A stretch of DNA of 64,000 nucleotides from an uncultured Gammaproteobacteria bacterium (lineage in GTDB: Bacteria > Patescibacteriota > Microgenomatia > JALYQM01), in contig CAYOFQ010000002.1 of assembly GCA_964403585.1 (NCBI GenBank), positions 5,667-69,666 on the forward strand, given 5' to 3'. Under the pieces are notes generated by a model, which had not been told where the DNA came from, ran no database searches, and was given only the letters and a program-made list of their open reading frames with translations. Positions 5,777-55,021 of this stretch are shown piece after piece. Positions within the stretch are counted from its first letter, which is position 1. Each line of letters begins with the position of its first letter. A program made the translations under genes and the position numbers.

Positions 5777-6469
5777 CTATTCGTCCACTCTCACCTCGTT
5801 CACCACATCATAATATGCATGCAAATACGAATTCTCCAACACCTCGCACTTCACCAACCGCAACGGTCGCACCTTCAACAAATCCACCTGCGTATGAAGC
5901 GACTCTCCATCCACCAACGTCGACGTATCCTTACCACCCACCAACACCGCCGCAATCACCACCGAAACATGATCAATCAGTCCTCGCCGCACCCATTCCG
6001 CATTCAACGTTCCTCCCGACTGAATCGTAATCCGATCCACCCTATACTCACGCTTAAGTTTCTCCATTAACCCAGCCAAATCCACTTCACCGTCATAAAA
6101 TAGAATCTCAATATTCGAATATTCCTGCTTCACCTTAAAAGCCGGATGATTTTTATTCGTCGTCACCAAATACAACGTCTTCACCCACTGCGCCAAATAC
6201 GCCACACCCTTTTCATTTAAATGAGGCTTATTATCCAGGATAATAAAACTACAATCAATTTTCTTCGGCGGAGTCGTTCGCTCATTCACCCCAATCTTCG
6301 CCATCACCCGCCCTGTATTTAACGAAAACAAATCCGTCTGCTTCTCCAAGTCATAGTACTGCTGTAACCCTTCCTTAACCCCCACAATCCGCTTAAAATC
6401 CTTATCTACATCCAACTCGTCTACATCCCCGGTGGAAATCTTTCCATCCATGTGATACACAATAATCAT
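5777..6469 (-). CDS. Dihydrofolate reductase-like / RibD C-terminal domain family protein
   Basis: 230 aa. C-terminal ITIQSGGTLNAEWVRRGLIDHVSVVIAAVLVGG resembles the RibD_C NADPH-binding core. Confidence 0.55.
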   Translation of the reverse strand: MIIVYHMDGKISTGDVDELDVDKDFKRIVGVKEGLQQYYDLEKQTDLFSLNTGRVMAKIGVNERTTPPKKIDCSFIILDNKPHLNEKGVAYLAQWVKTLYLVTTNKNHPAFKVKQEYSNIEILFYDGEVDLAGLMEKLKREYRVDRITIQSGGTLNAEWVRRGLIDHVSVVIAAVLVGGKDTSTLVDGESLHTQVDLLKVRPLRLVKCEVLENSYLHAYYDVVNEVRVDE

Positions 6470-6493: not shown

Positions 6494-6997
6494 ATGGAAG
6501 AAACATCCCCTATCGGTGAAATAAAAGGTACCCCAAAAGACGAACGAGGCGAACTACAGACCAATGGAGTATGGAAATTAACCGAAACGTCATCATTCGT
6601 AGAACCGGCAACCCCGGATAATCCGGATCATCGAACCCACAATGTAACAAAAACAACCTTCACCGTCGAAGGCCCAAATGATGAAGTATATAAAGTAACC
6701 AACACCAACGATCGTATCGATGTAGAAGGACCGGGGTACAACAGAACCGACGAAGTTATTACCAATACCGGTATCACTCGCAATAGCGAAGACTGGTTAC
6801 CATTCCAGATTGCCAACCAGCTCATTGATCGTGGTGACGCATTTAATCGAAGCAATCGGAATCAACTGGTAAGAACATTAGATACAATTGGCTCAAACTA
6901 CCAACAAGCAGTCGCAAAAGCAACTGAGAGCGGTGACCGCCTTGCTGCTATTCAAACCGCTGTTGATCAAGCTAAGGATTTTACCGACCAGCTATAA
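6494..6997 (+). CDS. Hypothetical protein
   Basis: 167-aa ORF, no recognised domain, followed by an intrinsic terminator. Confidence 0.5.
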   Translation: MEETSPIGEIKGTPKDERGELQTNGVWKLTETSSFVEPATPDNPDHRTHNVTKTTFTVEGPNDEVYKVTNTNDRIDVEGPGYNRTDEVITNTGITRNSEDWLPFQIANQLIDRGDAFNRSNRNQLVRTLDTIGSNYQQAVAKATESGDRLAAIQTAVDQAKDFTDQL

Positions 6998-7023
6998 AAA
7001 ATAAAATTCAAAGTGTAATAATA

Positions 7024-7054
7024 AAAAAGAGCCGTAATGGCTCTTTTTTATTTT
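7024..7054. terminator. Rho-independent terminator (bidirectional position between convergent genes)
   Basis: aaaaAGAGCCgtaatGGCTCTtttttatttt: a GC hairpin flanked by A-run and T-run. Confidence 0.65.
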
Positions 7055-7066
7055 ACGATAATTAGG

Positions 7067-7861
7067 TTAAAAAATCTTTAAGTAACAATATACCACAATC
7101 ACACTGGCTACCACCAGCAATCCCACCATCGCCAACGGAACCACCGCTTCAGCATTCCCTGTACGCAAATCTAAAAACAACGTCGCCACAATACTACTCC
7201 CCATCAATACCGAAAATACCAGCCACGGCGCGGCAAACACATACCCTAAGGTTTTCTTTCGCCATAACAAAACGCCTATTAGTATCATCGCCGACAACAC
7301 TAACGACAAATCTATAACCTGAATAGGATTCACCCATAACCCGGCCGTTGCAATACTTTTTGGTAGATCTCCAGAGATCAGCGCCGGAATAATCTCAGAC
7401 AACCACAGCAAGGCAAATAACCCTCCCGTAAGCATCAGCAAAACACTCGCTCCGCGGAATCTCTTACCCACAACACTTTTGGCCAAGATAGCCAGATCCT
7501 GACCCAATAACCCAACTATCACGCTGTACGCAGATAAACCCAAAATAGCTACATACACTAAGAATAAATAATTGAAATGCACAAAAAAGGCATAGATCAA
7601 AAACGCGTAAATAAAATACAGCAGCGTACCCAACCACACCAGCCAAGCCGCAACAGATTTCTTAGTGAGAAAATACGTACTAACAAGCAACACCGGCACC
7701 GCCAACAAATTCCCAATATCCTGCCCCACCGCCTGCATCGCCCAGTTCGCCGATTCCTGCGCATACGTAACCGGATCAAAAATACCCAGTAAACTCGACA
7801 GCAAAACTAACGCGCCAATAAGCACCGAACAAAAAATCCAAACTTTAGATACCGAATGCAT
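7067..7861 (-). CDS. Polytopic membrane protein (about 8 TM), unknown function
   Basis: 264 aa, highly hydrophobic with multiple predicted TM helices. Confidence 0.55.
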   Translation of the reverse strand: MHSVSKVWIFCSVLIGALVLLSSLLGIFDPVTYAQESANWAMQAVGQDIGNLLAVPVLLVSTYFLTKKSVAAWLVWLGTLLYFIYAFLIYAFFVHFNYLFLVYVAILGLSAYSVIVGLLGQDLAILAKSVVGKRFRGASVLLMLTGGLFALLWLSEIIPALISGDLPKSIATAGLWVNPIQVIDLSLVLSAMILIGVLLWRKKTLGYVFAAPWLVFSVLMGSSIVATLFLDLRTGNAEAVVPLAMVGLLVVASVIVVYCYLKIF

Positions 7862-7913
7862 ACCAACATGATAGCGTATTCTAAATTAAATACTGTGATC
7901 TGGATAAAATGAT

Positions 7914-8021
7914 TCATTGGGGAAACAGAGAGATAACCGAACCTATAAACATAAAAATGCCAAAAAACAACAGCGACAAGCCGCCAAGCTTTAACTTCTT
8001 ACTCCATACGTTCTTTTTCAT
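7914..8021 (-). CDS. Small membrane peptide (35 aa) MKKNVWSKKLKLGGLSLLFFGIFMFIGSVISLFPQ
   Basis: Not in ORF track (too short). Perfect SD AGGAGGTGA 5 nt before the ATG at 8021, one TM helix, stop TGA at 7914-7916. Confidence 0.35.
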   Translation of the reverse strand: MKKNVWSKKLKLGGLSLLFFGIFMFIGSVISLFPQ

Positions 8022-8609: not shown

Positions 8610-9038
8610 TTATGCCACATGCTTCTTCATATACTCATATGCCGACCTGATTATCGATTCCAAAACCGCCAAATCCACATCCGAAAGCTTATTAATATAC
8701 AAACATCCACCCATTCCGCTACCGCTCGTTTTATGTTTGCCTAATTTCTCCAAAGCCGGATTATCGTGATTCCCTTGCAACACATACAACGTTAAGTTCT
8801 GCTTCCGCGGCGAAAACCCCACCAACATCCAATCCCCTTCCTGAGCACTTCGTTCGGATTTATAATGATACTTTCCAAACCCTACAATACTCGTTCCCCA
8901 CATCACCGCTTTTTCTCCGGTAACTTTTTTGAACATTTCCAACAGCGCCAACGCATCTTCACGCTTCTGCTGCGGCTCAACGGAATTCAAAAACTCTTTT
9001 GGATCTTGATCGGTAATTTTCGTTTTAGGTTCGGCCAT
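8610..9038 (-). CDS. DUF1801 (YdhG-like) family protein
   Basis: 142 aa with DUF1801 core GKYHYKSERS...LGKHKTSGSGMGGCLYINKLSDVD. A paralog lies at 14774-15205. Confidence 0.6.
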   Translation of the reverse strand: MAEPKTKITDQDPKEFLNSVEPQQKREDALALLEMFKKVTGEKAVMWGTSIVGFGKYHYKSERSAQEGDWMLVGFSPRKQNLTLYVLQGNHDNPALEKLGKHKTSGSGMGGCLYINKLSDVDLAVLESIIRSAYEYMKKHVA

Positions 9039-9057
9039 AGGTTGATTATATCAAACC

Positions 9058-10053
9058 TTACGGAAACAAGGTTTCAAACGAAGGACTATGCTCGAGGATT
9101 TCTCGCAGAAAAATATTCTTGGCAAAACGGTCAACTATTCCGGCAGCCGTATCCGTCAGTTCATCAGGCAATCGTCGCATCGTTATGCGTTGGTACATCG
9201 GATGAATCAGCGCGAAACCGTATTCAACAGTTCTCACCGCCAAATTACTAAAACCCATTTCCCGGCATTTCGAACGCAACTGTGCTTTATGTTCACGTAC
9301 AAGCCACTTTGGATCCTCTGTCGGATGTATCGATTGCAGCGCGTTATAGTAGTTTGGTATAGCCAACCGACCATCCAATTCCGCCCCGTTAATATCATCA
9401 TCAATCTGAGCCAACATCGTTGTGTAATGCAACCCCACCAGCGCCCGGCGAGTCCGTGTCACATCGCTACCTGCATCGAAGAAAACTGAATATTTAGCCA
9501 CCATCTCTTCAAAATTTCGCGGCATCTGAGCAAAGTTAAAACCAACTTCTTCTAATACCTGCGGACTCAGTAAAGACAAACAAAACGCCTCATACATAGC
9601 CACATCACAATGGACATGTTGCAGCTGTTGCTCCGGTGTCAGTTCACCTTGGTAGGTTGACAGAAACAAACTATCCCGGGAAAAATGACCAAAAGCAACA
9701 TCAGCTTCTCCACACGGCACTGCCGCAAATTTTTCAAAATACCGTTTGTGCAAACGTTGAGACATCTCTACTAATGCATCTCGATGATCTGTAGCACCGA
9801 CAGCTTTACGCTCAGCCGGTCGGCCAACATCAATATAGTCATTCAAGGCCGTCAGAGCCACCAAATACGCATCCAAGCCGCGCACCCTCTCGGCGATAGT
9901 ACCCTGCAAATAATCGGGGAATAAACATTCCACTGCCGAAACAATCGTCGCCGTCGTTACGGGCAAAGTTAACCCAGGTTCTTTTCGCTTCTCAGCGGCC
10001 ACAACCCGTCCAACTTCAATAAAAGAACTCACACCTTCAGAGAAACTTGCCAT
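9058..10053 (-). CDS. Isoprenoid-synthase-fold protein (terpene synthase / prenyl-diphosphate synthase-like, degenerate Asp-rich motifs)
   Basis: The track ORF extends to 10149, but that would overlap the divergent P450 start. The internal ATG at 10053 (MASFSEGVSS) is preceded by TATAAT 9 nt upstream (leaderless). Asp-rich motifs LNDYIDVGRPAERK (~aa 70) and AQIDDDINGAELD (~aa 220) sit at FARM/SARM-like or DDxxD/NSE-like spacing. Confidence 0.35.
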   Translation of the reverse strand: MASFSEGVSSFIEVGRVVAAEKRKEPGLTLPVTTATIVSAVECLFPDYLQGTIAERVRGLDAYLVALTALNDYIDVGRPAERKAVGATDHRDALVEMSQRLHKRYFEKFAAVPCGEADVAFGHFSRDSLFLSTYQGELTPEQQLQHVHCDVAMYEAFCLSLLSPQVLEEVGFNFAQMPRNFEEMVAKYSVFFDAGSDVTRTRRALVGLHYTTMLAQIDDDINGAELDGRLAIPNYYNALQSIHPTEDPKWLVREHKAQLRSKCREMGFSNLAVRTVEYGFALIHPMYQRITMRRLPDELTDTAAGIVDRFAKNIFLREILEHSPSFETLFP

Positions 10054-10115
10054 ATCGCGAATTATACCATTACTAAGCAAAAAAGCATAAATATGATACA
10101 ATCCGTTCTTAATAT

Positions 10116-11567
10116 ATGAACGAATTAGTTCGGGAAATTGGATATGCACTCCACAGCAGGATAGCGGTGGAAACCCGCCGCGCCCTGGCGCCTAATCAAA
10201 CTCCGGGGCCTCGGAAACTTAATCCGCTACTCGGATGTTTACCGGAAGTCAGCACAGGACTTCTTGAATATATAGATACCGTCGCGCATCAGTTTCCTGA
10301 AATAGCGTTCTATCATGCCGGCGCTGCTATCTGTCAGGTTACCGATCCTGGGTTGGTGCGGCAAGTGTTGGCAGTGCAGCACGAAAAAACCCAGGCCATA
10401 GTTTTCCCGCGCACGGCCATGCGTTCCACCTTAGGCGAAGGAGTATTATTTAGCCAGGGCACCAAATGGCGCAACTCCCGCGAAGCAATGCAACCACAAT
10501 TTCATCACGGGAAACTGGAAAATTTCGCCGATATTGTCCACTCGGTATTGGATGAAACAGTCGACCAACTCAAATCATACCAAGAAACCGGCGCTACCTT
10601 TGACCTTAACAACGCCATGTCCGAAATGACTTTAAAAATCGTTCTGCGATCACTCTTTTGTCAGGACCTACCGCTGCAGGATTACCGTTCCATCATCGAC
10701 TTCACTATTAGATACAACGAGCTTTTTGTAGATACCCTCACTAAATCTCCTCTCTCACTTGTCAATCTGTTACTGGACAACAAATGGGACAAAAACGTCC
10801 GCAAGCTTCACGATATCGTCGAACAGGCAGATATCATTTTCGACCGGCTTATCGATCACCACCTCGAATATCCGCCCGGAACCTTTGACGACCTCTTATC
10901 ACTATTTATGAATATTCAATTTGAAGGACAACCAAACACACGAGAACAAGTCAAAAACGAAATCCGCACCTTCATACTCGCCGGGCACGACACCTCTGCG
11001 CGAGGTTTAACCTGGCTCTGGTACAACCTTTCTCAAAAACCGGAATGTATCGCCAAACTAACAGGTGAATTACAAGCCACCGGTAAAAACGCGCGCGAAT
11101 TAGGTCCGCATGATCTCAGAGAACTTCCGTACCACCGTGCCACCATTGAAGAAAGCCTGCGACTACACCCGCCTTCTTGGGTAAATTTACGCATGGCCAA
11201 AGAAAACCTGGCCCTAAAAAGTTCGAGCGGTAAGGATTATTTCGTCCCGCGGGGTACATACATTATTGTCAGTCCGTATGGCACCCACCGCAGCCCTGCG
11301 TATTGGGAAAATGCCGAACAATTCAATCCGGAAAGATTTCTTCTGCCGAATAGAAAAACAATCCACCCCGGCGCCTTCTTTCCGTTTGGCGGCGGTCCTC
11401 GTCATTGCATTGGCCAGGGCTTTGCTATGACGGAAATGCAGTTAGCAGTAGCACGACTTAATTCCGAATTTGCTATTCAAATAATTACCGGAGAAGTTGA
11501 ACCAATGGCCTCACTTGTGCTTCGAGCTAAAAACCCCATTATGGCTAAAGTAACACAAAAAGAATAA
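10116..11567 (+). CDS. Cytochrome P450 monooxygenase
   Basis: 483 aa. Heme-binding loop FPFGGGPRHCIGQGFA, I-helix AGHDTSA, ExxR motif ESLRLHPP and an N-terminal PGPRKLNPLLG. Confidence 0.9.
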   Translation: MNELVREIGYALHSRIAVETRRALAPNQTPGPRKLNPLLGCLPEVSTGLLEYIDTVAHQFPEIAFYHAGAAICQVTDPGLVRQVLAVQHEKTQAIVFPRTAMRSTLGEGVLFSQGTKWRNSREAMQPQFHHGKLENFADIVHSVLDETVDQLKSYQETGATFDLNNAMSEMTLKIVLRSLFCQDLPLQDYRSIIDFTIRYNELFVDTLTKSPLSLVNLLLDNKWDKNVRKLHDIVEQADIIFDRLIDHHLEYPPGTFDDLLSLFMNIQFEGQPNTREQVKNEIRTFILAGHDTSARGLTWLWYNLSQKPECIAKLTGELQATGKNARELGPHDLRELPYHRATIEESLRLHPPSWVNLRMAKENLALKSSSGKDYFVPRGTYIIVSPYGTHRSPAYWENAEQFNPERFLLPNRKTIHPGAFFPFGGGPRHCIGQGFAMTEMQLAVARLNSEFAIQIITGEVEPMASLVLRAKNPIMAKVTQKE

Positions 11568-11611: not shown

Positions 11612-14203
11612 ATGCTTAAGCGACTGCTCACTTTTCTACTGCTTCTATCACTCTCGATATTTATTTTTCCGGGCAAAGTCCACGCGGCGTATTCCCTTGC
11701 TGGAAGCAACTCCTTCACCGGAACCAGCAGCGTCGCCATGCCAATTACAGATTTACAAATTAGTGGCACCGGTACCGAACCAATCAATGTAAAACTATTA
11801 GTTACCAGTGGAACACTTTCCATGTCTACCACCACCGGACTTACCTTCGATGGCAGCTCCAGCGGTTCTACAATCTATTTCAGCGGAACACTTACCAATA
11901 TCAATAACGCCTTAGCAACACTCACCTACACCAGAGCTTCAACCGGAACTGATACACTCGAAGTGTCACTGGTCCCGCGCGGTGAAGTTTTTTTTACAGA
12001 CAATAACCACTTATATAAATTTATCTCCGGAACCATCACCGCCAACAGTGCCCGTACCTCAGCCGCAGCACAAACCGCATACGGGGCCACCGGCTATCTT
12101 GCCACTATCACCTCCCAAGCCGAAAACGATTTCGTTGCAAACCGTCTCCAGGGTGATGGGTGGATCGGTGGCAGCGACGCCACTTCTGAAGGCACTTGGA
12201 AATGGATCACTGGACCTGAAACCGACACAACCTTCTGGTCTGGCGCATCAGGTGGAAGCACCGTAGGTGGCAATTACGCCAACTGGGCCTCCGGCGAACC
12301 AAATGACTGGGGTGGCAACGAAGACTGTATCCAGTTTTATATCACCAGCCGCAACTGGAACGATCTACCTTGCACTGGAAACACCCTTTCCGGGTATGTT
12401 GTCGAGTTTGGAGCACCGGGAGATCTACCCAGTGTCGTCGCCAAAAATATTTCTATCACTACCAGTAACGCACCAACCGTGAACACCTTCAGCCCTCTGG
12501 ATAACGCTACTAATATTTCCACCACCTCCAACCTTACATTGACGTTTAATCAAACTATCACTAAAGGTACGGGGAATATTCTCATTAAAAAAACTTCCGA
12601 CAACTCCACCGTTGAAACCATCGATGTCACCAGCTCGCAGGTTACCGGCCAAAGCACCAGCACTATTACTATCGACCCAAACACTACACTCGATGAAAAC
12701 ACCTCCTATTACATCACTATCCCAAATACCGCTTTTAAAAATGGCAGCAACGCGTTTTATACCGGCATCTCCACAACTACTGGCTGGAATTTTACCACCG
12801 GAGATTTCACTAACCCCGGCTTAAGCAGCATAACTGCCACATCAATTTCTAATTCCGGAGCAACTATCACCTGGGCGTCTACCGAGAGTTCGTCATCCCG
12901 GGTAACCTACGGACTCACGACATCATACGGCACTCAAACCTCCGAAACAGATACCTCTCCACGCGTCACATCTCATTCAGTTGCATTAACCGGTTTACTC
13001 GCCTGCACGACCTATCATTACACTGTCACATCACGCGATGCTTCCTCAAATAGCAGCACTTCCTCAGATAATTCATTTACTACCACCGGCTGTGAGGCTA
13101 GCCAAACTCCAGTCGACACCAACACCGAAACCATAACTACAACAACCGGCGGAACAACTACTCTTGAGGAAAACAACAACGAACTGACCGTCCAGGCACC
13201 GGGCAATTTCACTACTGCCGCATCGTCGGTTGTAATCCAAATCAAAGCAGTCGAAAGTTCACCGGTATTAAGTGCAACCGGTAAACCAACCGAAGTCCCC
13301 TTACCGGTCGGCAATATCGTCTTCGATGTTAAAGCCATTATTAATGGAACAACCGTGTTAGATTCATTTGATCAACCGGTCACGATCACCTACCACTATA
13401 CCGATGCAGATATCGTTGGCATCAAAGAAGAAACGCTCAGACTGTATCATTACCACAATAACACCTGGGAAGAACTCGACTCCTGTTATGTTAACCAGAC
13501 TACCAACACCATTTCCTGCACCACCGACAGTTTCTCAATTTTCGCGCTGTTTGGGAAATCCATCAACAGCCCAACCGCTCAAGTTGCTACAACCAACAAC
13601 GGTCCGGCCACATGCGGCTCATCCGTTCCGTCTACGCCCACACTATTTCAAATTGACGCAGCTCAAACCCAAGCCAAGGTATACCTCTCACCCGTTAGTA
13701 ATCCGGTTACCAACTACTTTATTTCCTACGGATACTCACCAAACGAAGAACGCTTTGGCACCTTCACCAACCTAAACCAGTCTACGGGAGTTCTTTCATA
13801 CACCGTCAACTTTTTAAGTGCCAACACCACCTACTATTTCAAACTACGCGCCTACAACGACTGCATGCCGGGCAATTGGAGTAACGAGATGAAGATCACC
13901 ACCCATAAACGCTTATCCGGCAGCACCGTGTACTATAAAAACTCACCCACACACACGCTCTCGGTTTTCCCCAGCCCGCTCAAAAACATTCCCTCCGTTC
14001 TCATATCGCAAAACAACACCTCCCGCATTCTCGGAGCTACAACCGGCACTACCTGTGAATATACTGTCCAATCGGGTGATTCACTCTGGACCATTGCATC
14101 CCAAAAACTCGGTGCCGGCTGGAAATACCAATCGATCATGGAGCAAAACAATTTAAATTCTACTTTCTTGAAGACAGGCTCCGTCTTAAGAATTGGCTGT
14201 TAA
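11612..14203 (+). CDS. Large secreted surface protein with C-type lectin, Ig-like/FN3 and C-terminal LysM domains
   Basis: 863 aa with signal peptide MLKRLLTFLLLLSLSIFIFPGKVHA. CTLD core is WIGGSD...EGTWKW...GEPND...EDC. The FN3-like segment is ATITWASTESSSSRVTYG...YHYTVTSRD. LysM is YTVQSGDSLWTIASQKLG...GSVLRI. Confidence 0.75.
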   Translation: MLKRLLTFLLLLSLSIFIFPGKVHAAYSLAGSNSFTGTSSVAMPITDLQISGTGTEPINVKLLVTSGTLSMSTTTGLTFDGSSSGSTIYFSGTLTNINNALATLTYTRASTGTDTLEVSLVPRGEVFFTDNNHLYKFISGTITANSARTSAAAQTAYGATGYLATITSQAENDFVANRLQGDGWIGGSDATSEGTWKWITGPETDTTFWSGASGGSTVGGNYANWASGEPNDWGGNEDCIQFYITSRNWNDLPCTGNTLSGYVVEFGAPGDLPSVVAKNISITTSNAPTVNTFSPLDNATNISTTSNLTLTFNQTITKGTGNILIKKTSDNSTVETIDVTSSQVTGQSTSTITIDPNTTLDENTSYYITIPNTAFKNGSNAFYTGISTTTGWNFTTGDFTNPGLSSITATSISNSGATITWASTESSSSRVTYGLTTSYGTQTSETDTSPRVTSHSVALTGLLACTTYHYTVTSRDASSNSSTSSDNSFTTTGCEASQTPVDTNTETITTTTGGTTTLEENNNELTVQAPGNFTTAASSVVIQIKAVESSPVLSATGKPTEVPLPVGNIVFDVKAIINGTTVLDSFDQPVTITYHYTDADIVGIKEETLRLYHYHNNTWEELDSCYVNQTTNTISCTTDSFSIFALFGKSINSPTAQVATTNNGPATCGSSVPSTPTLFQIDAAQTQAKVYLSPVSNPVTNYFISYGYSPNEERFGTFTNLNQSTGVLSYTVNFLSANTTYYFKLRAYNDCMPGNWSNEMKITTHKRLSGSTVYYKNSPTHTLSVFPSPLKNIPSVLISQNNTSRILGATTGTTCEYTVQSGDSLWTIASQKLGAGWKYQSIMEQNNLNSTFLKTGSVLRIGC

Positions 14204-14755
14204 TACTTTAAAAGTAATGCTTGTTCTCATCGCAGTAGTTTGTTCTACCTTAATTCTCTCGAGCCGTATCTTATCCGCATCGAGGTTATCTAACAATCGA
14301 AGTCCTTTGCCAATCAAAACCGGCATAATATCTACCGACAATTCATCACATAATCCCGCATTGAGACATTGTCGGATCGTATCCGGCCCACCGATTACCT
14401 GAACCATTTTTTCTCCGGCAGCTTTCCTTGCTTTTGCCACAGCACTTTCAATACCATCCGAAACAAACGTTACGCTCAGTCGACCATTTCCTTGAGGATA
14501 CTTTTCAGGAGGAGTATGCGTTAAAATAAACAGCGGAACCTGAAATTCATAATCATCATTAATCCATTCAAACGGATCGGCCATTTCATATACATGCCTG
14601 CCCATTACCACTGCACCGGTGTTTGCAATCATCTCTTGGAATGAATGAACAGTATGCAACTCTTCAAAGTCAGTATACAGTCTATCTACACTGCCGTTAC
14701 TGTCCTGAACAAATCCGTCCAGTGACATCGTCATACCTGCAACTACTTTACTCAT
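14186..14755 (-). CDS. Dihydrofolate reductase family protein (RibD_C domain)
   Basis: 189 aa. MSLDGFV...VMGRHVYE...PLFILTHT...VIGGPDTIRQCLNAGLCDEL..VLIGKGLRL. Confidence 0.7.
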   Translation of the reverse strand: MSKVVAGMTMSLDGFVQDSNGSVDRLYTDFEELHTVHSFQEMIANTGAVVMGRHVYEMADPFEWINDDYEFQVPLFILTHTPPEKYPQGNGRLSVTFVSDGIESAVAKARKAAGEKMVQVIGGPDTIRQCLNAGLCDELSVDIMPVLIGKGLRLLDNLDADKIRLERIKVEQTTAMRTSITFKVLTANS

Positions 14756-14773: not shown

Positions 14774-15205
14774 TTAGGATTTCCACAATATGCGGTCAAT
14801 CGGACCTTTTTGGGACTGTAACTTTATATTCTCATACGACTGCCGCACAATTTGTTCAAGTACTGTCATATCAACATCGCTAAGTCGTTTAATATAAATA
14901 CAATATCCGGTAAGAGTGTGCTTCCCCAACTTCGCCAGTAACACCGAATAACGTGCAGTCCCATCCATCAGGTAAATAGTAATCTTCCCTTTGCGTGGAT
15001 AAAAACCAATCACCAGAGCATCACCTTCCCGGCCACTGTCATATTTGTAATGATACGTATCGAAACCGAGAGTTCCTTCATTCCATTTTTGCGGGATATG
15101 TCCACTTATTCGCTGCATCATCGCCAGTAATTTATGACTGTCTTCAATAGTTTGCGCATCGGTAAGTGAATCAATATAATCTGCAACTGAGCTGTCAGAT
15201 TTCAT
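14774..15205 (-). CDS. DUF1801 family protein (paralog of 8610-9038)
   Basis: 143 aa. GFDTYHYKYDSGREGDALVIGFYPRK...LGKHTLTGYCIYIKRLSDVD. Confidence 0.6.
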   Translation of the reverse strand: MKSDSSVADYIDSLTDAQTIEDSHKLLAMMQRISGHIPQKWNEGTLGFDTYHYKYDSGREGDALVIGFYPRKGKITIYLMDGTARYSVLLAKLGKHTLTGYCIYIKRLSDVDMTVLEQIVRQSYENIKLQSQKGPIDRILWKS

Positions 15206-15395
15206 GTATTAGTTTTCCTTTCGTGTCATACTTCATCCACGGTTTCGCCAATTTTCCCGCCACAAAATATCCCGTCTTTAGTTTAGTTGCATCCCTGCGA
15301 TACCATTTCCAATACCCTTCACGTTTTCCATCTTTAAGCTTTCCTATTGCATGAATTGATCCATCTGAATAATACGTAACACTGGAAATCTTCAT
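15195..15395 (-). CDS. MORN-repeat (YwqK-like) small protein
   Basis: 66 aa. YYSDGSIHAIGKLKDGKREGYWKWY is a MORN repeat variant. Start and stop overlap the neighbours, so it is part of the operon. Confidence 0.5.
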   Translation of the reverse strand: MKISSVTYYSDGSIHAIGKLKDGKREGYWKWYRRDATKLKTGYFVAGKLAKPWMKYDTKGKLIHEI

Positions 15396-16000
15396 AAGAC
15401 ATTGTATCTGATATGTGTCACAAAGCTGGTTCCACTCACTTCAATTGGTTCAAGTTTAAGATTAGGCACTCCTTCGAAAAGTCGTGACCCTGTTCCGATC
15501 GTTACCGGCACAATATGTAACCACAGTTCATCAATAAATCCGCCGGCCAAATATTGATTTATCGTGCTCGCGCCTCCCATAATCTTAACATTCCTATTCC
15601 CGACAGCCTCTTTAGCCTGTGTGAGAGCCGACTCAATACCATCAGTTACAAAGAAAAATGTCGTTCCACCTTCCATATTAATCGGTGCACGCGCTTTATG
15701 AGAAAGCACAAACACCGGAGCATGGTACGGAGGATCGTCACCCCACCACCCCTTCCATTCAGGATTATCACGTCTGTCACGAGGCCCAAACATGTTACTC
15801 CCCATAATAAACGCACCCGCATCAAGAATAGCGTCAATTTCTTTGGTATGTTTATGCTTTTCGGGTTCGGCAAACATCCAGCGATCAAGTAAATCGGCGT
15901 CAAAATTATCTCCAAACGGGTGTTCAAAACTCTGGTTCACACCGGCGCCAAACCCGTCCAAAAAAATAGTCAACCCTGCAGTAACTTTTGTTTTATTCAT
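15392..16000 (-). CDS. Dihydrofolate reductase family protein (RibD_C domain), second paralog
   Basis: The track ORF runs to 16051. The likely start is MNKTKV at 16000, which overlaps the upstream stop by ATGA. Motifs FLDGFGAG..., VFVLSHK..., IMGGASTINQYLAGGFIDELWLHIVPVTIGTGSRLF. Confidence 0.7.
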   Translation of the reverse strand: MNKTKVTAGLTIFLDGFGAGVNQSFEHPFGDNFDADLLDRWMFAEPEKHKHTKEIDAILDAGAFIMGSNMFGPRDRRDNPEWKGWWGDDPPYHAPVFVLSHKARAPINMEGGTTFFFVTDGIESALTQAKEAVGNRNVKIMGGASTINQYLAGGFIDELWLHIVPVTIGTGSRLFEGVPNLKLEPIEVSGTSFVTHIRYNVL

Positions 16001-16440
16001 AATTCTTGAGCTAGCCCAATGAGAATTCCTTCGGGTCCACGGATATAACAAAGCCGATACGAATGCTCATATTGGACCACTTCACCAACTAGCTGTGCAC
16101 CTTTCTTCTGAAGTCTTGTTAAAGTATCGTCGATATCCTGTACAGTAAACATAACCCGCAAGTAACCAAGCGCATTTACTGGAGCATTCCGATGATCGGC
16201 AATAACAGACGGAGCAATAAAACGCGAAAGCTCCAGGCGACTATGCCCGTCCGGGGTAACCATCATCGCAATCTCTACTCGCTGATTACCCAAACCCGTC
16301 ACTCTTCCGGCCCATTCACCTTCTACCATACCGCGTCCTTCCAGTGTCAGACCGAGTTCGGTAAAAAAGGCAATCGCCTCATCGAGAGACTCCACAACAA
16401 TACCGACGTTATCCATCCGTTTCAAGTTAGATGCGCTCAT
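15997..16440 (-). CDS. VOC/glyoxalase family protein
   Basis: 147 aa. MDNVGIVVESLDEAIAFFTELG...GPEGILIGLAQ is glyoxalase/bleomycin-resistance-like. Confidence 0.65.
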   Translation of the reverse strand: MSASNLKRMDNVGIVVESLDEAIAFFTELGLTLEGRGMVEGEWAGRVTGLGNQRVEIAMMVTPDGHSRLELSRFIAPSVIADHRNAPVNALGYLRVMFTVQDIDDTLTRLQKKGAQLVGEVVQYEHSYRLCYIRGPEGILIGLAQEL

Positions 16441-18094: not shown

Positions 18095-18404
18095 TATTTT
18101 TCCCTTTCTTAGCTAAGACTGCTTGCAGCGAAAGTGCTACCGCTTTGTCTTAAAAGACCCTTAATACATTCGAATTTAATCAAATGCATAAAGGGTCTTT
18201 CATTACTAAGAAAGAAGATAAACTACATATTTTGAGGAAGATATAAGCTAAAAAGCTAATCCTCGTGTTGTAAAAGAACACTTATGAGCTCAATTGAGCT
18301 CAATCTTAATTACATTCATAAGTTCAATTTGAGCTTAGAGTATAACTAAGATATGTTTATTATATCACAAAATAGGGAAAAAGTAAATTACTATAGGTTA
18401 TTTG
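18095..18404 (-). promoter_or_regulatory. Promoter-leader module copy L5 (CCTATAGTA box, TATAAT, perfect GAGCTCAATTGAGCTC palindrome, TTTTACAACACGAGG box, structured 3' leader)
   Basis: Minus strand reads aaCCTATAGTAatTTACTT...gaTATAAT, then a leader with the 16-bp perfect palindrome at 18286-18301 and two strong hairpins before the RBS. It begins 1 nt after the tRNA 3' end. Confidence 0.45.
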
Positions 18405-18681
18405 CTCCCCGACTAGGATTCGAACCTAGAACCTTCTCGTTACATGAACCCCACAAGTTTCCTAGTGGCATGGACTATCTCATCACCATACTTAAAAAGC
18501 ACAGGTGTCAGGCGTATAGTCTCTGAACCTTCAATACGCAAGAAGCGTAAAGCTTGGCTGCGGATTACCATAATCTTTCGATCGTAGGCTTCCCGACAGT
18601 TAACCCAATTTTCACTTCAGGATTTCTCCAGAAGGCTGCATCAATCTACAGCGAGCCGCTCTACCGTTGAGCTATCAGGGA
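18405..18681 (-). tRNA. tRNA-Asn(GUU) interrupted by a group I intron (exons 18648-18681 and 18405-18442)
   Basis: 5' half UCCCUGA-UA-GCUCAACGGUAGAGC-G-GCUCG-CUGU. 3' half UAACGAGA-AGGUU-CUAGGUUCGAAUCCUAG-UCGGGGA-G. The acceptor stems pair (UCCCUGA/UCGGGGA). Spliced anticodon loop is CUGUUAA, class I variable loop, discriminator G73, no encoded CCA. Confidence 0.65.
18443..18647 (-). ncRNA. Group I intron (IC3-like, Azoarcus/cyanobacterial tRNA-intron type), 205 nt, no ORF
   Basis: 5' exon ends in U. IGS GCAG pairs with the exon CUGU. P2 is CUUC-U-GGA-GAAA-UCC-U-GAAG. The core shows extended identity to the Azoarcus pre-tRNA-Ile intron as recalled from memory (UAUGGUAAUCCGCAGCCAAGCUU...UUGAAGGUUCAGAGACUAUACGCC...CACCU). 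The intron ends with omega-G (CAUG|UAACGAG). Confidence 0.65.
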
Positions 18682-18684
18682 ATA

Positions 18685-19401
18685 TTAACTTTTACCGTGC
18701 TTTAAGCACGATGCATCCTGAATTCTATCACCAAAAACAGCAGAAATCCACCCCATAATTTGACGCTGTATATCTGAGCAACTGAACCTAATAGAAAACA
18801 CTCCATAAGAGTGTATATTTTTTCTAATTTTCTGTGAATCAATCTTATTTTTTACTATATAAGTTTTATGGAATTTAGCCTTAGAAATACCCGTTAGTTG
18901 AGACCAAAATTCCCTTGCAGCTTCTATATCTAAACCTTCATGAATCCAAAGTGCACCTCTAAATCTATCTTCAGGGACCTTCGCAAATTGCCGTAACCAG
19001 CCCATCATAAACTCGATTATCCGAGGATCAGAATTTGCGATACCTCCCTTCCCATCGGCTTTATCACCTTCACCCAAATAAATAGCGATACCTGCCAACA
19101 ACCTGTCCCTTTCAGAAATCGCACCTAGTTCATTTTTTGCATGTAAAAATATTTGCTGAGTTTTATTAATTCTGTAGGAACGTTTATTTTCAGCTGCAGC
19201 AAGAGAACCCTTTTTTTGACCGTTAATTTTTGTAGTAATAAGCCGGTTTCTCTGTTCATCAGTTAATACTATATCCCTACACCAACGACTTAATGTGTCT
19301 TTAGAAACTTTAACCTGTAATAAAATCTCATTATAAGAAAGACCTTTACTTCTTAATTTCTGAGCAATAATTCGTTCTTCCAATTTCCCTGAATAACCCA
19401 T
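18685..19401 (-). CDS. HTH-domain protein, possible LAGLIDADG-like endonuclease fold (uncertain)
   Basis: 238 aa. N-terminal HTH (RSKGLSYNEILLQVKVSKDTLSRWCRDI). Segment ERDRLLAGIAIYLGEGDKADGKG loosely resembles a LAGLIDADG motif. It ends 4 nt before the intron-containing tRNA. Confidence 0.3.
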   Translation of the reverse strand: MGYSGKLEERIIAQKLRSKGLSYNEILLQVKVSKDTLSRWCRDIVLTDEQRNRLITTKINGQKKGSLAAAENKRSYRINKTQQIFLHAKNELGAISERDRLLAGIAIYLGEGDKADGKGGIANSDPRIIEFMMGWLRQFAKVPEDRFRGALWIHEGLDIEAAREFWSQLTGISKAKFHKTYIVKNKIDSQKIRKNIHSYGVFSIRFSCSDIQRQIMGWISAVFGDRIQDASCLKHGKS

Positions 19402-24268: not shown

Positions 24269-24958
24269 ATGCCAACCCAACTCCGCTACCTGCTCGCCGC
24301 CATCTTGCTCGCGCTCGTCGTCGTTCTGCCCGCGGCTGCACAACCCTCAACACCCCCCGCAAACCCAGAGCCGACCACGATCGAGCTGAAACCGGCCTCG
24401 AAGACCATCACCGTAACCGTTCCCGCCAACGCAACGTTCGAGCAACGCCATGCCCTTATTAAGGCTGCCGCGCCTCAGAACGAGCTCGTTCGGATCCACC
24501 TCGTGATCGACAAGACGCTGGCTCCCAAGCCCGCCATCACGACCGCCGAGGCCAACCCGATCGCTGCATCCCACGCTGTCAGCTACACTATGCAGTGGAA
24601 CCGGCCGGTGTTCAACAACTACAGCAGTGCTACGCCTGAAGACTTGTCGCCCACGCTCACGTTCAATGTGTACACCGATACCGTAGGGCTCTCGCTCTAC
24701 AGCTGGATCAACTACAAGAACATCGAGCGCGGGGAGAGTGAATTTTACGTCGATTTCGACTTCGTTAACGTCACTGTCACCGGATCCGGCTCAATCCAGC
24801 TACATCTACCCACATATACCCCCAAGGCAGGATATGAGCAGGACGCTCAGTTCAATGCGTATCTCGGCGAGTACACCACTAACGGCTGGCTGAAGCAATC
24901 AACCATCCACTTCTACTCGCACGTCAAGCACATTTACTCGCCCGTCGCCCTTAGTTAG
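24269..24958 (+). CDS. Secreted hypothetical protein (GC-rich, about 60% GC)
   Basis: 229 aa. Signal peptide MPTQLRYLLAAILLALVVVLPAAA. Its composition is strongly atypical for this genome. Confidence 0.6.
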   Translation: MPTQLRYLLAAILLALVVVLPAAAQPSTPPANPEPTTIELKPASKTITVTVPANATFEQRHALIKAAAPQNELVRIHLVIDKTLAPKPAITTAEANPIAASHAVSYTMQWNRPVFNNYSSATPEDLSPTLTFNVYTDTVGLSLYSWINYKNIERGESEFYVDFDFVNVTVTGSGSIQLHLPTYTPKAGYEQDAQFNAYLGEYTTNGWLKQSTIHFYSHVKHIYSPVALS

Positions 24959-25671: not shown

Positions 25672-26514
25672 ATGGAAACCCTCAACCGCAACCGCACCAA
25701 GCTCATCATCGCCGCCATCGCCATCATTTTCGCCATCTCTGCGCTTCCGCTGGCTGACTATTACTTCGGTACCAAGGTCACACCAATGACCAGCTACCAG
25801 CAGCCGACCGCCGCCCCGACCGCGGCCGCCCAGCCGACTAACGATCCCGTTGGTACCCCCAGCGAGAACGACCACAGCCTGCTGAAGGTGGCCTTCGACG
25901 ACGAGCCGATCACCGTGATCACCCCGACCGAGACCATCTCCTACGAGTTGGATCTCCTCCGGCTCTTCAACTACCAGCACGGTGACGTGTTCACAGGCAA
26001 TGATGACATCAGCGTTTCAATGGAAACTTTGGACGGCGACCCTGCCACAACAATCGTGTTCGACACCAGCTCAGACCAGCTCGGCGCCACCGACCTCGAC
26101 AAGCACACCACCACCTTCGGCAAAGGCCTCGCCATCAACAAGAGCGACCACTCGATCCACGCTGACGGCGGTGCTGTGATCACCTTCACCCTGACGACCT
26201 CGACCTTCGTGTCTGACGTTCAGGTTGTCGACCTGGATCGCGGCGCTATGCGAGTTGTTGGCCTAGATGAGAAAGGCAATGAAGTTTTCCGGCAGAGCAT
26301 GAGCCCCGACGCTCAGTTGATCAAGACGATGGCTGTCAACACGACGGTCAAAACGCTGATCATCCGGGTCAAGGACAGCTTTGTGTTGTTGCCACACTTC
26401 CGTGCCTTCTCCTCCGGCGAGCTGCGCGCCTTCTGGCTGCCGAAAACCCTCGGTGAGTGCACCAGCACCGCCGAAGAGGCCGCGCAATACCCCGATAAGC
26501 CGAGCTGCAACTAG
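25672..26514 (+). CDS. Membrane-anchored hypothetical protein (GC-rich)
   Basis: 280 aa. N-terminal TM LIIAAIAIIFAISALPLA, then a Pro/Ala/Thr linker and a beta-rich domain. About 60% GC. Confidence 0.55.
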   Translation: METLNRNRTKLIIAAIAIIFAISALPLADYYFGTKVTPMTSYQQPTAAPTAAAQPTNDPVGTPSENDHSLLKVAFDDEPITVITPTETISYELDLLRLFNYQHGDVFTGNDDISVSMETLDGDPATTIVFDTSSDQLGATDLDKHTTTFGKGLAINKSDHSIHADGGAVITFTLTTSTFVSDVQVVDLDRGAMRVVGLDEKGNEVFRQSMSPDAQLIKTMAVNTTVKTLIIRVKDSFVLLPHFRAFSSGELRAFWLPKTLGECTSTAEEAAQYPDKPSCN

Positions 26515-54998: not shown

Positions 54999-55021
54999 AA
55001 AAACATCAAAAGAAAATGATG
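54999..55021 (-). terminator. Intrinsic terminator immediately 3' of ssrA (CAUCA-uuuucuuu-UGAUG-UUUUU)
   Basis: 5-bp stem plus a U5 run on the minus strand. A second overlapping hairpin gives it bidirectional character. Confidence 0.5.

What the first reader, a model, noticed from the sequence alone, without database searches (positions are those of the whole stretch)
9058..11567. Divergent pair: isoprenoid-synthase-fold protein with degenerate Asp-rich motifs, plus a cytochrome P450
The P450 is unambiguous (FPFGGGPRHCIGQGFA). Its divergently transcribed partner has NDYIDVGRPAERK at about aa 70 and IDDDINGAELD at about aa 220. That spacing and composition match FARM/SARM of prenyl-diphosphate synthases or the DDxxD/NSE motifs of class I terpene synthases, but the first Asp is replaced by Asn.

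A terpenoid synthase plus P450 would be a minimal natural-product cluster. A DUF1801 gene is co-transcribed downstream.
Basis: partly seen in the sequence, partly recalled or inferred. Interest (0 to 1): 0.5.

Follow-up and report, generated by a model that had tools for sequence, protein, structure and literature searches.

The report
Undescribed terpenoid-synthase-fold enzyme beside a P450
A gene with no recognisable relatives in any curated family library is predicted with high confidence to fold like a terpene or prenyl-diphosphate synthase; it belongs to an undescribed family so far seen only in tiny-genome "candidate phyla" bacteria, and here it sits back-to-back with a cytochrome P450.

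Summary
Gene 9058-10053 (-) encodes a 331-aa protein with NDYID at residues 71-75 and DDDINGAELD at 218-227. It is transcribed divergently, across a 62-bp gap, from a clear cytochrome P450 (10116-11567, +), and a DUF1801 gene lies 19 nt downstream.

The protein matches nothing in Pfam, NCBIfam or PDB sequences. An exhaustive HMMER scan found about 45 distant relatives (16-27% identity). Those carrying names are hypothetical proteins from Microgenomates (CPR) bacteria. N71, D75, D219, D220 and D227, plus K187, Y188 and R317, are conserved in at least 90% of them.

The chemistry is unresolved. A P450 lies nearby in only one other locus. Other relatives sit beside a type-2 IPP isomerase, PAP2, DedA or xseAB genes, which points to housekeeping polyprenyl metabolism.

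My best guess is a Mg-dependent enzyme that ionises a prenyl diphosphate, coupled here to the P450. It is a new sequence family of a known fold, of moderate interest.

The parts
9058..10053 (-). 331-aa soluble protein with a class I terpenoid-synthase (alpha) fold, from an undescribed family restricted to CPR/Microgenomates
9823..9843 (-). Motif 1, N71-D72-Y-I-D75-V-G77 (family consensus N-[DE]-x-x-D-[ILV]-G). Proposed counterpart of the helix-D DDxxD/FARM metal-binding motif.
   Evidence: N71 and D75 are invariant and G77 is at least 90% conserved in 41 sequences. Per-sequence motif table. Coordinates. The role in metal binding is inferred, not shown.
9490..9495 (-). K187-Y188, a conserved basic/aromatic pair 32 residues upstream of motif 2. 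Candidate diphosphate-binding residue.
   Evidence: K187 is at least 90% conserved and Y188 is invariant. The role is inferred by analogy with the KT motif of trans-prenyl synthases or the diphosphate-sensor Arg of terpene synthases (my own knowledge).
9373..9402 (-). Motif 2, D218-D219-D220-I-N-G223-A-E-L-D227 (family consensus K-[IV]-x-D-D-x-x-G-x-x-x-D). It is in register with (N/D)Dxx(S/T/G)xxxE of class I terpene synthases and overlaps the DDxxD/SARM position.
   Evidence: D220 and D227 are invariant and D219 is at least 90% conserved. Per-sequence table. A weak local hhalign match places D219-D220 on the SARM Asp pair (in ...FQVQDDILD...) of E. coli IspA (probability 6%, E 0.006). Coordinates.
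9094..9108 (-). L-R317-E-I-L (family consensus L-R-H-x-L). Conserved C-terminal Arg and candidate diphosphate-capping residue.
   Evidence: R317 is at least 90% conserved. Its position, 90 residues after motif 2, resembles the RY pair of bacterial terpene synthases (my own knowledge, not tested).
10054..10115 (.). 62-bp divergent intergenic region shared by the two genes. It holds -10-like boxes for both directions.
   Evidence: Sequence. One sigma-70-like site on the minus strand at 10120->10093. TATAAT ends 10 nt before the ATG of the minus-strand gene, and TGATACAAT ends 17 nt before the P450 ATG (read directly from the sequence). These are consensus matches only.
10116..11567 (+). Cytochrome P450, 483 aa, soluble, of the CYP97/CYP3/CYP4/CYP102-like type
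   Evidence: PF00067 at 251.6 bits. Best PDB relatives are CYP97A3, CYP3A4 and CYP4B1 at E 1e-39 to 1e-33. No close homologue: the best are 30-36% identical. All NCBIfam hits fall far below their cut-offs.
11379..11426 (+). P450 heme-binding loop FPFGGGPRHCIGQGFA (Cys431 is the ligand)
   Evidence: ExxR lies at 11148-11162 and the I-helix AGxDT at 10977-10997.
8610..9038 (-). DUF1801 (YdhG-like) protein, 142 aa, 19 nt downstream on the same strand. Probably not a functional partner.
   Evidence: PF08818 at 36.6 bits. A paralogue lies at 14774-15205. No other family locus has a DUF1801 neighbour.

Best explanation
Gene 9058-10053 encodes a soluble, Mg2+-dependent enzyme with the class I terpenoid-synthase alpha fold. 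It belongs to an undescribed family so far seen only in CPR/Microgenomates bacteria.

**Proposed mechanism.**
- N71/D72/D75 on one helix and D219/D220/(G223)/D227 on the opposing helix hold a Mg2+ cluster.
- That cluster, together with K187, Y188 and R317, clamps the diphosphate of an allylic prenyl diphosphate.
- Loss of diphosphate gives an allylic carbocation inside the helical barrel. The cation is quenched or cyclised to a terpene hydrocarbon or alcohol.
- In this genome the divergently transcribed P450 then oxygenates that product.

**Shown:** the fold, the family-wide conservation of the motifs, and the gene adjacency.

**Inferred:** metal and diphosphate binding, the substrate, terpene-synthase-type chemistry rather than chain elongation, and coupling to the P450.

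**Nested confidence:** about 0.75 that it is a prenyl-diphosphate-using enzyme, and about 0.4 that it is a terpene synthase working with the P450.
For: - **Motif conservation.** N71, D75, D220 and D227 are invariant, and D219, K187 and R317 are at least 90% conserved, across homologues of 16-27% identity.
- **Motif register.** Motif 2 matches the NSE/DTE triad at positions i, i+4 and i+8. The motif positions (71 and 219) and the C-terminal Arg (317) match the usual layout of about 330-aa bacterial class I synthases (my own knowledge).
- **P450 adjacency.** The 62-bp divergent promoter region is shared with the P450. The nearest family member, P0002, also has a P450 within 1 kb.
- **Link to isoprenoid metabolism.** A Woesebacteria homologue sits in a tight same-strand array, TarA-like GT - family gene - type-2 IPP isomerase. 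The isomerase scores 381.6 bits on TIGR02151 against a cut-off of 281.3, and the gaps are 7 and 31 bp.
- **Precursor supply.** Most Microgenomates carry a mevalonate pathway (PMC6107057).
- **Precedent.** Structure-guided mining has already revealed functional non-canonical class I-like terpene synthases invisible to sequence profiles, some of them clustered with P450s (PMC11234867).
Against: - No sequence-level match to any terpene-synthase or prenyl-synthase profile.
- I had no access to model coordinates, so I could not verify that the two motifs face one cavity.
- P450 adjacency occurs in only 2 of about 18 contexts. The two P450s are only 29% identical. In L002 the P450 lies in a convergent operon, two genes away.
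- Most contexts look like housekeeping: single-copy genes next to IDI-2, PAP2, DedA/UptA-like, GlmU-like and xseAB genes.
- The window has no prenyl diphosphate synthase, MVA/MEP gene or ferredoxin partner among ORFs of 150 aa or more.
- P0001 lacks several residues conserved in the rest of the family: R32 is V and K216 is Q.
Confidence: 0.4

Rival explanations
1. The family is a highly divergent or alternative trans-prenyl diphosphate synthase. It would condense IPP with DMAPP, GPP or FPP and supply the allylic primer for the cis-prenyltransferase that makes the polyprenyl-phosphate sugar carrier in Microgenomates. On this reading the P450 next door is unrelated or only loosely related.
For: - The only sequence-level signal is a weak local hhalign match of motif 2 and the following D-x-x-L-G to the SARM + D-x-x-x-G-K region of E. 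coli IspA (E 0.006).
- K187-Y188 lies upstream of motif 2, like the KT motif. A basic residue, R32, lies 39 residues upstream of motif 1 in most members, like the GKRxR motif (the analogy is my own knowledge).
- The gene is directly followed by the type-2 IPP isomerase gene in a Woesebacteria operon.
- In four Woesebacteria it sits next to xseA-xseB, recalling the xseB-ispA-dxs arrangement of E. coli.
- Immediate neighbours include PAP2, DedA/UptA-like and TarA-like genes.
- It is a single-copy gene in housekeeping neighbourhoods.
- No canonical IspA/IspB-like gene occurs in about 400 kb of fetched loci.
Against: - Canonical trans-prenyl synthases are recognisable by PF00348 in all domains of life. 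Here neither DDx2-4D motif is intact (N-[DE]-x-x-D and DDxxG), and no member gives any PF00348 signal.
- hhalign against IspB gave only a nonsensical alignment.
- The xseAB genes are divergent from the family gene, not upstream of it in the same operon.
- P0001 itself lacks R32 and K216.
- Whether Microgenomates lack a canonical PF00348 gene was not testable here.
- Only 46 clusters at 50% identity were found. That is few for a universal housekeeping gene, although the query is a divergent member.
Confidence: 0.25
2. It is a terpenoid-synthase-fold prenyltransferase, or an enzyme that processes polyprenyl diphosphate. It might transfer a prenyl group to a non-isoprenoid acceptor, as DabA/KabA and MoeN5 do, or act on long-chain polyprenyl diphosphate in cell-envelope lipid metabolism.
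For: - Two further acidic residues inside the helical core region, D127 (at least 90% conserved) and D150 (at least 90% conserved in the 41-sequence alignment), are unusual for a purely hydrophobic cyclase pocket.
- Neighbours recurrently belong to polyprenyl-phosphate-linked glycan metabolism: TarA-like, PAP2, DedA/UptA-like, Bac_transf, GT-C and GT4.
- The N-D-x-x-D form of motif 1 is the form seen in UbiA-type prenyltransferases (my own knowledge).
Against: - No acceptor-binding feature can be identified.
- The protein is soluble, unlike UbiA.
- Glycosyltransferases are common in CPR genomes, so part of the neighbourhood signal may be background.
- There is no sequence similarity to any of these enzymes.
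Confidence: 0.15
3. The fold is reused for something unrelated to prenyl diphosphates, either a binding or regulatory protein or another metal-dependent activity. The P450 adjacency would then be coincidental.
For: - Similarity to known enzymes is at fold level only (5-13% identity, rmsd 3.4-5.2 A).
- Foldseek E-values are weak (0.014 or higher) and TM-scores are 0.3-0.4.
- Genomic contexts are heterogeneous.
- Nothing in the 64-kb window supplies a prenyl substrate.
Against: - The residues conserved family-wide are the kinds of residue (Asn/Asp, Lys, Arg) that bind Mg-diphosphate in this fold, and they lie at sequence positions typical of those sites.
- One relative lies in an operon with an IPP isomerase.
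Confidence: 0.12

Closest known systems
Bacterial class I terpene synthases/cyclases (e.g. epi-isozizaene synthase 3KB9, PhmA 8KIH, T-muurolol synthase 9HQD)
   Same: - Single-domain all-alpha fold of about 330 aa.
- One acidic motif near residue 70-100 and a second about 140-150 residues later, in the i/i+4/i+8 register of NSE/DTE.
- A conserved Arg near the C-terminus.
- A neighbouring P450, as in many terpenoid clusters.
   Different: - No hit to the terpene-synthase Pfam families (PF03936, PF19086, PF06330) for any member at E up to 1.
- The first motif is N-[DE]-x-x-D, not DDxxD.
- The second is DDxxGxxxD, with Asp in place of the final Glu and Gly in place of Ser/Thr.
- The Arg is followed by His or Glu, not Tyr.
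- No effector triad was identified.
- Only 5-13% identity.
- The family is so far seen only in Microgenomates/CPR.
trans-Isoprenyl diphosphate synthases (PF00348; E. coli IspA/IspB, C. parvum 2O1O, S. solfataricus HexPPS 2AZJ)
   Same: - A weak local profile alignment of motif 2 to the IspA SARM region.
- A K-[TY] pair upstream of motif 2.
- Genomic links to an IPP isomerase and to xseAB, as for ispA.
   Different: - No PF00348 signal.
- Neither DDx2-4D motif is intact.
- No GGKRxR, RRG or GQ motif.
- An 11-residue deletion after motif 2 relative to IspA.
- P0001 lacks two of the family's conserved basic residues.
Non-canonical class I-like terpene synthases found by structure-model mining (classes IB BalTS, IC AsR6, ID PeuTPS, IE, IF; Abe et al. 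2024, PMC11234867)
   Same: - The same situation: a class I-like 3D model, sequence unrecognisable to profiles, and new acidic motifs at the class I active-site position.
- Some are clustered with P450s, and some are not near any terpene genes.
   Different: - The published motifs differ. Class IB has DYLDNLxD and DY(F,L,W)IDxxED. Class ID has D(N/D), ND and RxxKD, with about 194 residues between the first two.
- No PDB sequence match at E up to 10.
- The published classes came from actinomycetes and relatives, not CPR.
- I could not compare sequences of classes ID-IF directly.
Terpenoid-synthase-fold prenyltransferases (DabA/KabA N-prenyltransferases, MoeN5, Ord1)
   Different: No sequence similarity. 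No identifiable acceptor site. These enzymes occur in algal or actinomycete natural-product pathways.
CYP97 / CYP3 / CYP4 / CYP102-type cytochromes P450 (for the neighbouring gene)
   Same: Full-length PF00067 match with intact Cys-loop, ExxR and I-helix motifs. Best solved relatives are CYP97A3 (carotenoid hydroxylase), CYP3A4 and CYP4B1.
   Different: Only about 30-36% identical to anything in 5.8 billion proteins. All NCBIfam equivalog hits, including the terpene oxygenases PtlI and CYP170A1, fall far below their cut-offs. No redox partner was found in the window.

Membership tests
Class I terpene synthase (canonical) | All-alpha terpenoid-synthase (alpha-domain) fold | tested here: met
   [not shown]
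Class I terpene synthase (canonical) | Match to a terpene-synthase sequence profile (Pfam Terpene_synth_C, Terpene_syn_C_2, TRI5; NCBIfam) | tested here: not met
   No such hit for P0001 or any of 41-45 relatives at E up to 1. No PDB sequence or profile hit at E up to 10.
Class I terpene synthase (canonical) | DDxxD motif on helix D | tested here: not met
   The motif is N71-D72-x-x-D75. The Asn is invariant in the family, so it is not a one-off substitution.
Class I terpene synthase (canonical) | NSE/DTE motif (N/D)Dxx(S/T/G)xxxE on helix H | tested here: inconclusive
   D219-D220-x-x-G223-x-x-x-D227 is in the same register, but it ends in Asp instead of Glu and has Gly at i+4.
Class I terpene synthase (canonical) | The two motifs face one active-site cavity and bind three Mg2+ | not testable with these tools
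Only secondary structure and fold-search scores were returned.
Class I terpene synthase (canonical) | Conversion of a prenyl diphosphate to a terpene | not testable with these tools
   This needs an enzyme assay.
trans-Isoprenyl diphosphate synthase (PF00348) | PF00348 profile match | tested here: not met
   No hit for any family member. phmmer with E. coli IspA and IspB found nothing in any locus. hhalign with IspA gave probability 6% and with IspB 0.5%.
trans-Isoprenyl diphosphate synthase (PF00348) | Two DDx2-4D motifs (FARM and SARM) | tested here: not met
   N-[DE]-x-x-D and D-D-x-x-G. The first Asp of motif 1 and the third Asp of motif 2 are absent family-wide.
trans-Isoprenyl diphosphate synthase (PF00348) | IPP-binding basic residues (GGKRxR, RRG, KT) | tested here: inconclusive
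   K187-Y188 and R317 are conserved. R32 is present in most members but is Val in P0001. A basic residue often lies 6-8 positions after D75. No true GGKRxR or RRG motif.
trans-Isoprenyl diphosphate synthase (PF00348) | Genomic association with isoprenoid precursor genes | tested here: inconclusive
   IDI-2 lies immediately downstream in one Woesebacteria species. xseAB is adjacent in four related species. Nothing of the kind is found in the window.
Non-canonical class I-like terpene synthases (IB, ID) | Published signature motifs (IB: DYLDNLxD + DY(F,L,W)IDxxED; ID: D(N/D), ND, RxxKD) | tested here: not met
   The motifs reported in PMC11234867 are not present in the family consensus. Sequences of classes IE and IF were not available for comparison.
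Cytochrome P450 (PF00067), neighbouring gene | Profile match plus Cys heme loop FxxGxRxCxG, ExxR and I-helix AGxDT | tested here: met
   251.6 bits against a cut-off of 22.8. FPFGGGPRHCIG at residues 422-433, EESLR at 345-349 and LAGHDTS at 288-294.
DUF1801 (PF08818), downstream gene | Profile match above the gathering score | tested here: met
   36.6 bits against a cut-off of 27.2.

The most novel reading that the evidence does not exclude
Microgenomates (CPR) bacteria use this non-canonical terpenoid-synthase-fold family for a core step of isoprenoid lipid metabolism, downstream of their mevalonate pathway. It could replace the canonical trans-prenyl diphosphate synthase, or it could make an as yet unknown terpenoid membrane or envelope lipid. 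In at least two lineages the product would be further oxidised by a P450. If so, O2-dependent terpenoid chemistry exists in organisms thought to have almost no biosynthetic capacity.
Probability: 0.25. Interest if true: 0.75.

Novelty: new variant of a known kind. Interest (0 to 1): 0.55.

Why it matters
- **Lineage.** CPR/Patescibacteria have tiny genomes and are thought to lack most lipid and secondary metabolism. Yet most Microgenomates keep a full mevalonate pathway whose end products, apart from the sugar-carrier lipid, are unknown.
- **What the family offers.** It is conserved and lineage-restricted, has the prenyl-diphosphate-ionising fold, and carries its own invariant motif pair (N-[DE]-x-x-D and D-D-x-x-G-x-x-x-D). 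That makes it a concrete candidate for the missing downstream chemistry. It would also add a new sequence class to the class I terpenoid synthase superfamily.
- **Testability.** The pairing with an orphan P450 gives a directly testable two-gene module.
- **If it proves ordinary.** If it is simply a very divergent FPP/GGPP synthase, it would still correct a systematic annotation gap in thousands of CPR genomes.

Tried and rejected
- **Direct sequence annotation failed.** Pfam, NCBIfam and PDB sequence searches gave nothing, with the single protein or with the family profile.
- **The word-indexed search of 5.8 billion proteins found only the protein itself.** With the alignment it found 3 proteins. 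The exhaustive phmmer search was needed to find the family.
- **AF2 without an alignment was useless,** at pLDDT 40.
- **The search for related loci with the full alignment failed** because no stretch was conserved enough. A sub-alignment gave only 4 genome loci and 12 metagenome loci.
- **Neighbouring unannotated proteins are not paralogues or a conserved partner.** I tested the roughly 320-360-aa neighbours in L002, L010, L019 and L021. hmmsearch found one family copy per locus, and all-against-all BLAST of neighbours found no recurrent partner except the P450 in window and L002.
- **Profile comparison cannot separate cyclase from elongase.** hhalign against E. coli IspA and IspB gave a 6% probability SARM-region match for IspA and nonsense for IspB.
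- **A P450-linked subclade is not resolved.** P0001 is a lone deep branch whose nearest neighbour is P0002, in a star-like tree.
- **A horizontally acquired island is not supported.** The GC of the two genes (47-48%) is only slightly above that of housekeeping genes (44-45%).
- **A spurious ORF is rejected,** given 45 full-length homologues and a confident fold.
- **The longer GTG start at 10149 is rejected** on the HMM alignment.
- **Literature searches found no description of this family.** They also found no statement on whether Microgenomates lack canonical trans-prenyl synthases.
Full report
**1. The observation**

- The ORF table and the sequence confirm a minus-strand ORF ending at 9058. 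Its ATG is at 10053, giving 331 aa.
- The frame stays open to a GTG at 10149, which would overlap the neighbouring gene. The family HMM, however, aligns from exactly the codon at 10053. An independent gene call on the same contig uses the same start.
- NDYIDVG is residues 71-77 and DDDINGAELD is residues 218-227.
- On the plus strand, 62 bp away, lies a 483-aa cytochrome P450 at 10116-11567. It scores 251.6 bits on PF00067 and has an intact Cys loop (FPFGGGPRHCIGQGFA, residues 422-437), ExxR motif and I-helix motif.
- A DUF1801 gene (8610-9038) follows the target gene after 19 nt on the same strand.

**2. The target protein is an orphan to every curated resource**

- It has no Pfam, NCBIfam or PDB-sequence match.
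- In the word-indexed collection of 5.8 billion proteins it finds only itself.
- An exhaustive phmmer scan of 1.84 billion cluster representatives found 46 proteins at E below 1e-3. Nearly all are 310-365 aa and align over most of their length, at 16-27% identity.
- None of them hits any Pfam or NCBIfam family. A profile of the family hits no PDB sequence.
- The members that carry names are 'hypothetical protein' from Candidatus Woesebacteria, Roizmanbacteria and Chisholmbacteria, which are Microgenomates of the Candidate Phyla Radiation.
- The window's organism is not identified directly. Its family membership, many unannotated ORFs and a T4SS-pilin-domain gene (which I regard as typical of CPR genomes), a tRNA gene interrupted by a group I intron, and GC of 43% suggest a CPR bacterium. 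This is an inference.

**3. The acidic motifs are a family signature**

- In 41 aligned sequences N71, D75, Y188, M213, D220 and D227 are invariant. G77, D127, D150, K187, K216, D219 and R317 are at least 90% conserved (per-sequence table).
- The consensus is N-[DE]-x-x-D-[ILV]-G for motif 1 and K-[IV]-x-D-D-x-x-G-x-x-x-D-x-x-L-G-x-P for motif 2.
- P0001 departs from the consensus at a few positions: R32 is V, K216 is Q and H318 is E. It is the most isolated branch of a star-like tree, with P0002 as its nearest neighbour.

**4. Fold**

- Without an alignment AlphaFold2 failed, at pLDDT 40. With the 45-sequence alignment it gave pLDDT 92.6 and pTM 0.92, and all five models scored 89.6-92.6. The structure is entirely helical.
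- Foldseek gave weak E-values (0.014 or higher, TM 0.3-0.4), but its list is likewise dominated by this fold. The top hit is PhmA, 'a type I diterpene synthase without NST/DTE motif'.
The fold claim stands.
- Identity to all hits is 5-13%, so this is superfamily-level similarity only.
- The protein has no predicted membrane segment.

**5. How the motifs map**

- Motif 1 lies in the long helix 53-86. Motif 2 spans the end of helix 200-222 and the short helix 224-229.
- D219, G223 and D227 are in the i, i+4, i+8 register of the (N/D)Dxx(S/T/G)xxxE metal-binding motif of class I synthases. N71 and D75 are in the i, i+4 register of the first and last Asp of DDxxD.
- The positions (about 71 and 219, with an Arg at 317) resemble the layout of about 330-aa bacterial cyclases. 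This is from my own knowledge and was not tested.
- The only sequence-level link I obtained is a weak local hhalign match (probability 6%, E 0.006). It puts D219-D220 on the SARM Asp pair (in ...FQVQDDILD...) of E. coli IspA, and D227-x-x-L-G on the IspA D-x-x-x-G-K stretch, with an 11-residue deletion. IspB gave nothing meaningful.
- I could not read model coordinates. That the motifs face one cavity is therefore inferred, not shown.

**6. Genomic context**

In the window:
- No prenyl diphosphate synthase, MVA/MEP gene or ferredoxin or ferredoxin reductase occurs among ORFs of 150 aa or more.
- The surroundings are accessory-looking. They include three or four RibD_C paralogues, two DUF1801 genes, a large secreted lectin/Big_5/fn3/LysM protein and a type I restriction-modification system.

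Across about 18 distinct contexts of family members the gene is always single-copy, and the neighbours vary:

| Locus / lineage | Neighbours of the family gene |
|---|---|
| Woesebacteria 38_10 | Tight same-strand array: TarA/WecG-like glycosyltransferase - family gene - type-2 IPP isomerase (TIGR02151 381.6 bits against cut-off 281.3; gaps 7 and 31 bp) |
| L009 | PAP2 phosphatase immediately upstream |
| L004 | DedA/UptA-like protein immediately upstream |
| L015 | GlmU-like gene upstream |
| L010, L019, L021 | Glycosyltransferases, Bac_transf, GT-C genes |
| Four related Woesebacteria, including complete genome CP055308.1 | xseA-xseB next door, divergent; recalls E. coli xseB-ispA-dxs |

- By a rough estimate of mine, four immediate neighbours directly tied to IPP or polyprenyl-phosphate metabolism out of about 34 neighbour slots is well above a background of roughly 1%.
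- A P450 occurs near the family gene only in the window and in L002, which holds P0002, the nearest relative. There it is two genes away, in a convergent operon with a PNPOx-like gene, and it is 29% identical to the window's P450.
- The literature states that most Microgenomates carry a mevalonate pathway, typically syntenic with a cis-prenyltransferase gene (PMC6107057). Prenyl diphosphates are therefore expected to be available in this lineage. I found no statement on canonical trans-prenyl synthases in it.

**7. The P450**

- Its best solved relatives are CYP97A3, CYP3A4 and CYP4B1.
- Its best NCBIfam hits are the terpene oxygenases PtlI and CYP170A1, but at 133-135 bits against cut-offs of 700-800. 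They carry no specific information.
- Nothing closer than 30-36% identity exists in the 5.8-billion-protein collection, and the best hits come from Halobacteria, Nocardia and Acidobacteria.
- No substrate inference is possible from sequence.

**8. Interpretation**

*Shown:*
- a real, conserved, soluble protein family with the class I terpenoid-synthase fold;
- invariant Asn/Asp, Lys and Arg residues at positions typical of Mg-diphosphate binding in that fold;
- a link to isoprenoid metabolism in at least one lineage (the IDI-2 operon);
- divergent adjacency to a P450 here, plus one further loose P450 adjacency.

*Inferred:* it binds an allylic prenyl diphosphate through a Mg2+ cluster and ionises it.

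Which reaction follows is open.
- **Terpene synthase with P450 oxidation, about 0.4.** I rank this first for three reasons. The catalytic motifs of true trans-prenyl synthases are conserved and profile-detectable across all life, whereas this family has a different motif pair in NSE/DTE register. P450s do not act on diphosphates. Structure-guided mining has already produced functional non-canonical class I-like synthases, some next to P450s (PMC11234867).
- **Alternative trans-prenyl diphosphate synthase for carrier-lipid synthesis, about 0.25.** The housekeeping contexts, the IDI-2 operon, the xseAB synteny and the weak IspA match support this.
- **TS-fold prenyltransferase or polyprenyl-diphosphate-processing enzyme, about 0.15.**
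- **Non-isoprenoid reuse of the fold, about 0.12.**

**9. Comparison with known families and novelty**

- The protein fails the sequence-profile and motif tests for both canonical class I terpene synthases and PF00348 prenyl synthases, while meeting the fold test. I therefore do not file it as a member of either.
- It also does not carry the published motifs of the non-canonical classes IB or ID.
- It is best described as a new sequence family, a new variant, within the terpenoid-synthase fold superfamily, so far restricted to Microgenomates.
- The P450 and DUF1801 genes are ordinary members of their families.

**10. Verdict**

- The 'minimal natural-product cluster' reading is possible but only weakly supported by comparative context.
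- Interest is moderate (0.55). An undescribed, conserved, apparently catalytic isoprenoid-fold family in a lineage with famously sparse metabolism, next to an orphan P450, is directly testable by expression and in vitro assay.
- Interest would rise if the family proves to be the lineage's replacement for a core isoprenoid enzyme, or the source of a CPR-specific terpenoid lipid.

Noticed in passing
window 18395-18690 (-), intron core 18451-18657: A tRNA gene is interrupted by a group I intron (RF00028, 79.7 bits). The flanks form a 7-bp acceptor stem, a D-arm and a GGTTCGAATCC T-arm. ARAGORN does not call the gene, and trying all splice points did not fix the anticodon, so its identity is unresolved.
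   Followed up: partly
window 5777-6469, 14186-14755, 15392-16051 (RibD_C); 8610-9038 and 14774-15205 (DUF1801): Three RibD_C-domain paralogues and two DUF1801 paralogues are scattered around the target pair. On the source contig a glyoxalase and a fourth RibD_C gene follow (L001). This looks like a patch of duplicated accessory genes of unknown role. None of them recurs next to the family gene elsewhere.
   Followed up: partly
window 10054-10115 and 9039-9057: TATAAT-like boxes lie only 8-10 nt upstream of the ATGs of the target gene (GGTATAATTCGCGATATG) and of the DUF1801 gene (GATATAATCAACCTATG). No Shine-Dalgarno sequence is obvious. This hints at leaderless or near-leaderless transcripts, and at a separate promoter for DUF1801.
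   Followed up: no
window 24269-24958, 25672-26514, 29560-30939: Three ORFs without Pfam hits have GC of 58-64% in a 43% GC window. They encode signal-peptide-bearing proteins rich in Pro, Thr and Ala, probably surface proteins. The composition, rather than foreign origin, may explain the GC.
   Followed up: partly
window 11612-14203 (+): An 863-aa secreted protein lies immediately downstream of the P450. It combines C-type lectin, Big_5, purple-acid-phosphatase-N/fn3 and LysM domains, an unusual architecture for a bacterium.
   Followed up: no
L014 5088-6592 (-) with 6884-7927 (+); also L028, L029, L032: In four related Woesebacteria the family gene lies next to xseA-xseB (exonuclease VII), transcribed divergently. 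In E. coli, xseB is immediately upstream of ispA-dxs. This may be a remnant of positional equivalence to ispA, or a coincidence.
   Followed up: partly
L002 8960-9919 (+) and 11296-11754 (-): In the only other P450-linked locus, a 319-aa protein with no Pfam or NCBIfam hit lies between the family gene and the P450. It is not a family paralogue. A PNPOx/F420-type oxidoreductase sits upstream of the P450 in the same operon.
   Followed up: partly
L004 9504-12113 and 16507-16779; L009 3490-3825: Family loci in other CPR genomes lie beside what look like rRNA regions carrying 23S-rRNA-intervening-sequence proteins and a LAGLIDADG endonuclease, as I recall CPR rRNA operons often do. This fits the taxonomic assignment of the family.
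   Followed up: no
window 55019-55455 (-) and 55839-56354 (+): A tmRNA gene (91.3 bits) and an smpB gene lie close together. Four of the five tRNA genes ARAGORN calls in the window are tRNA-Ser.
   Followed up: no
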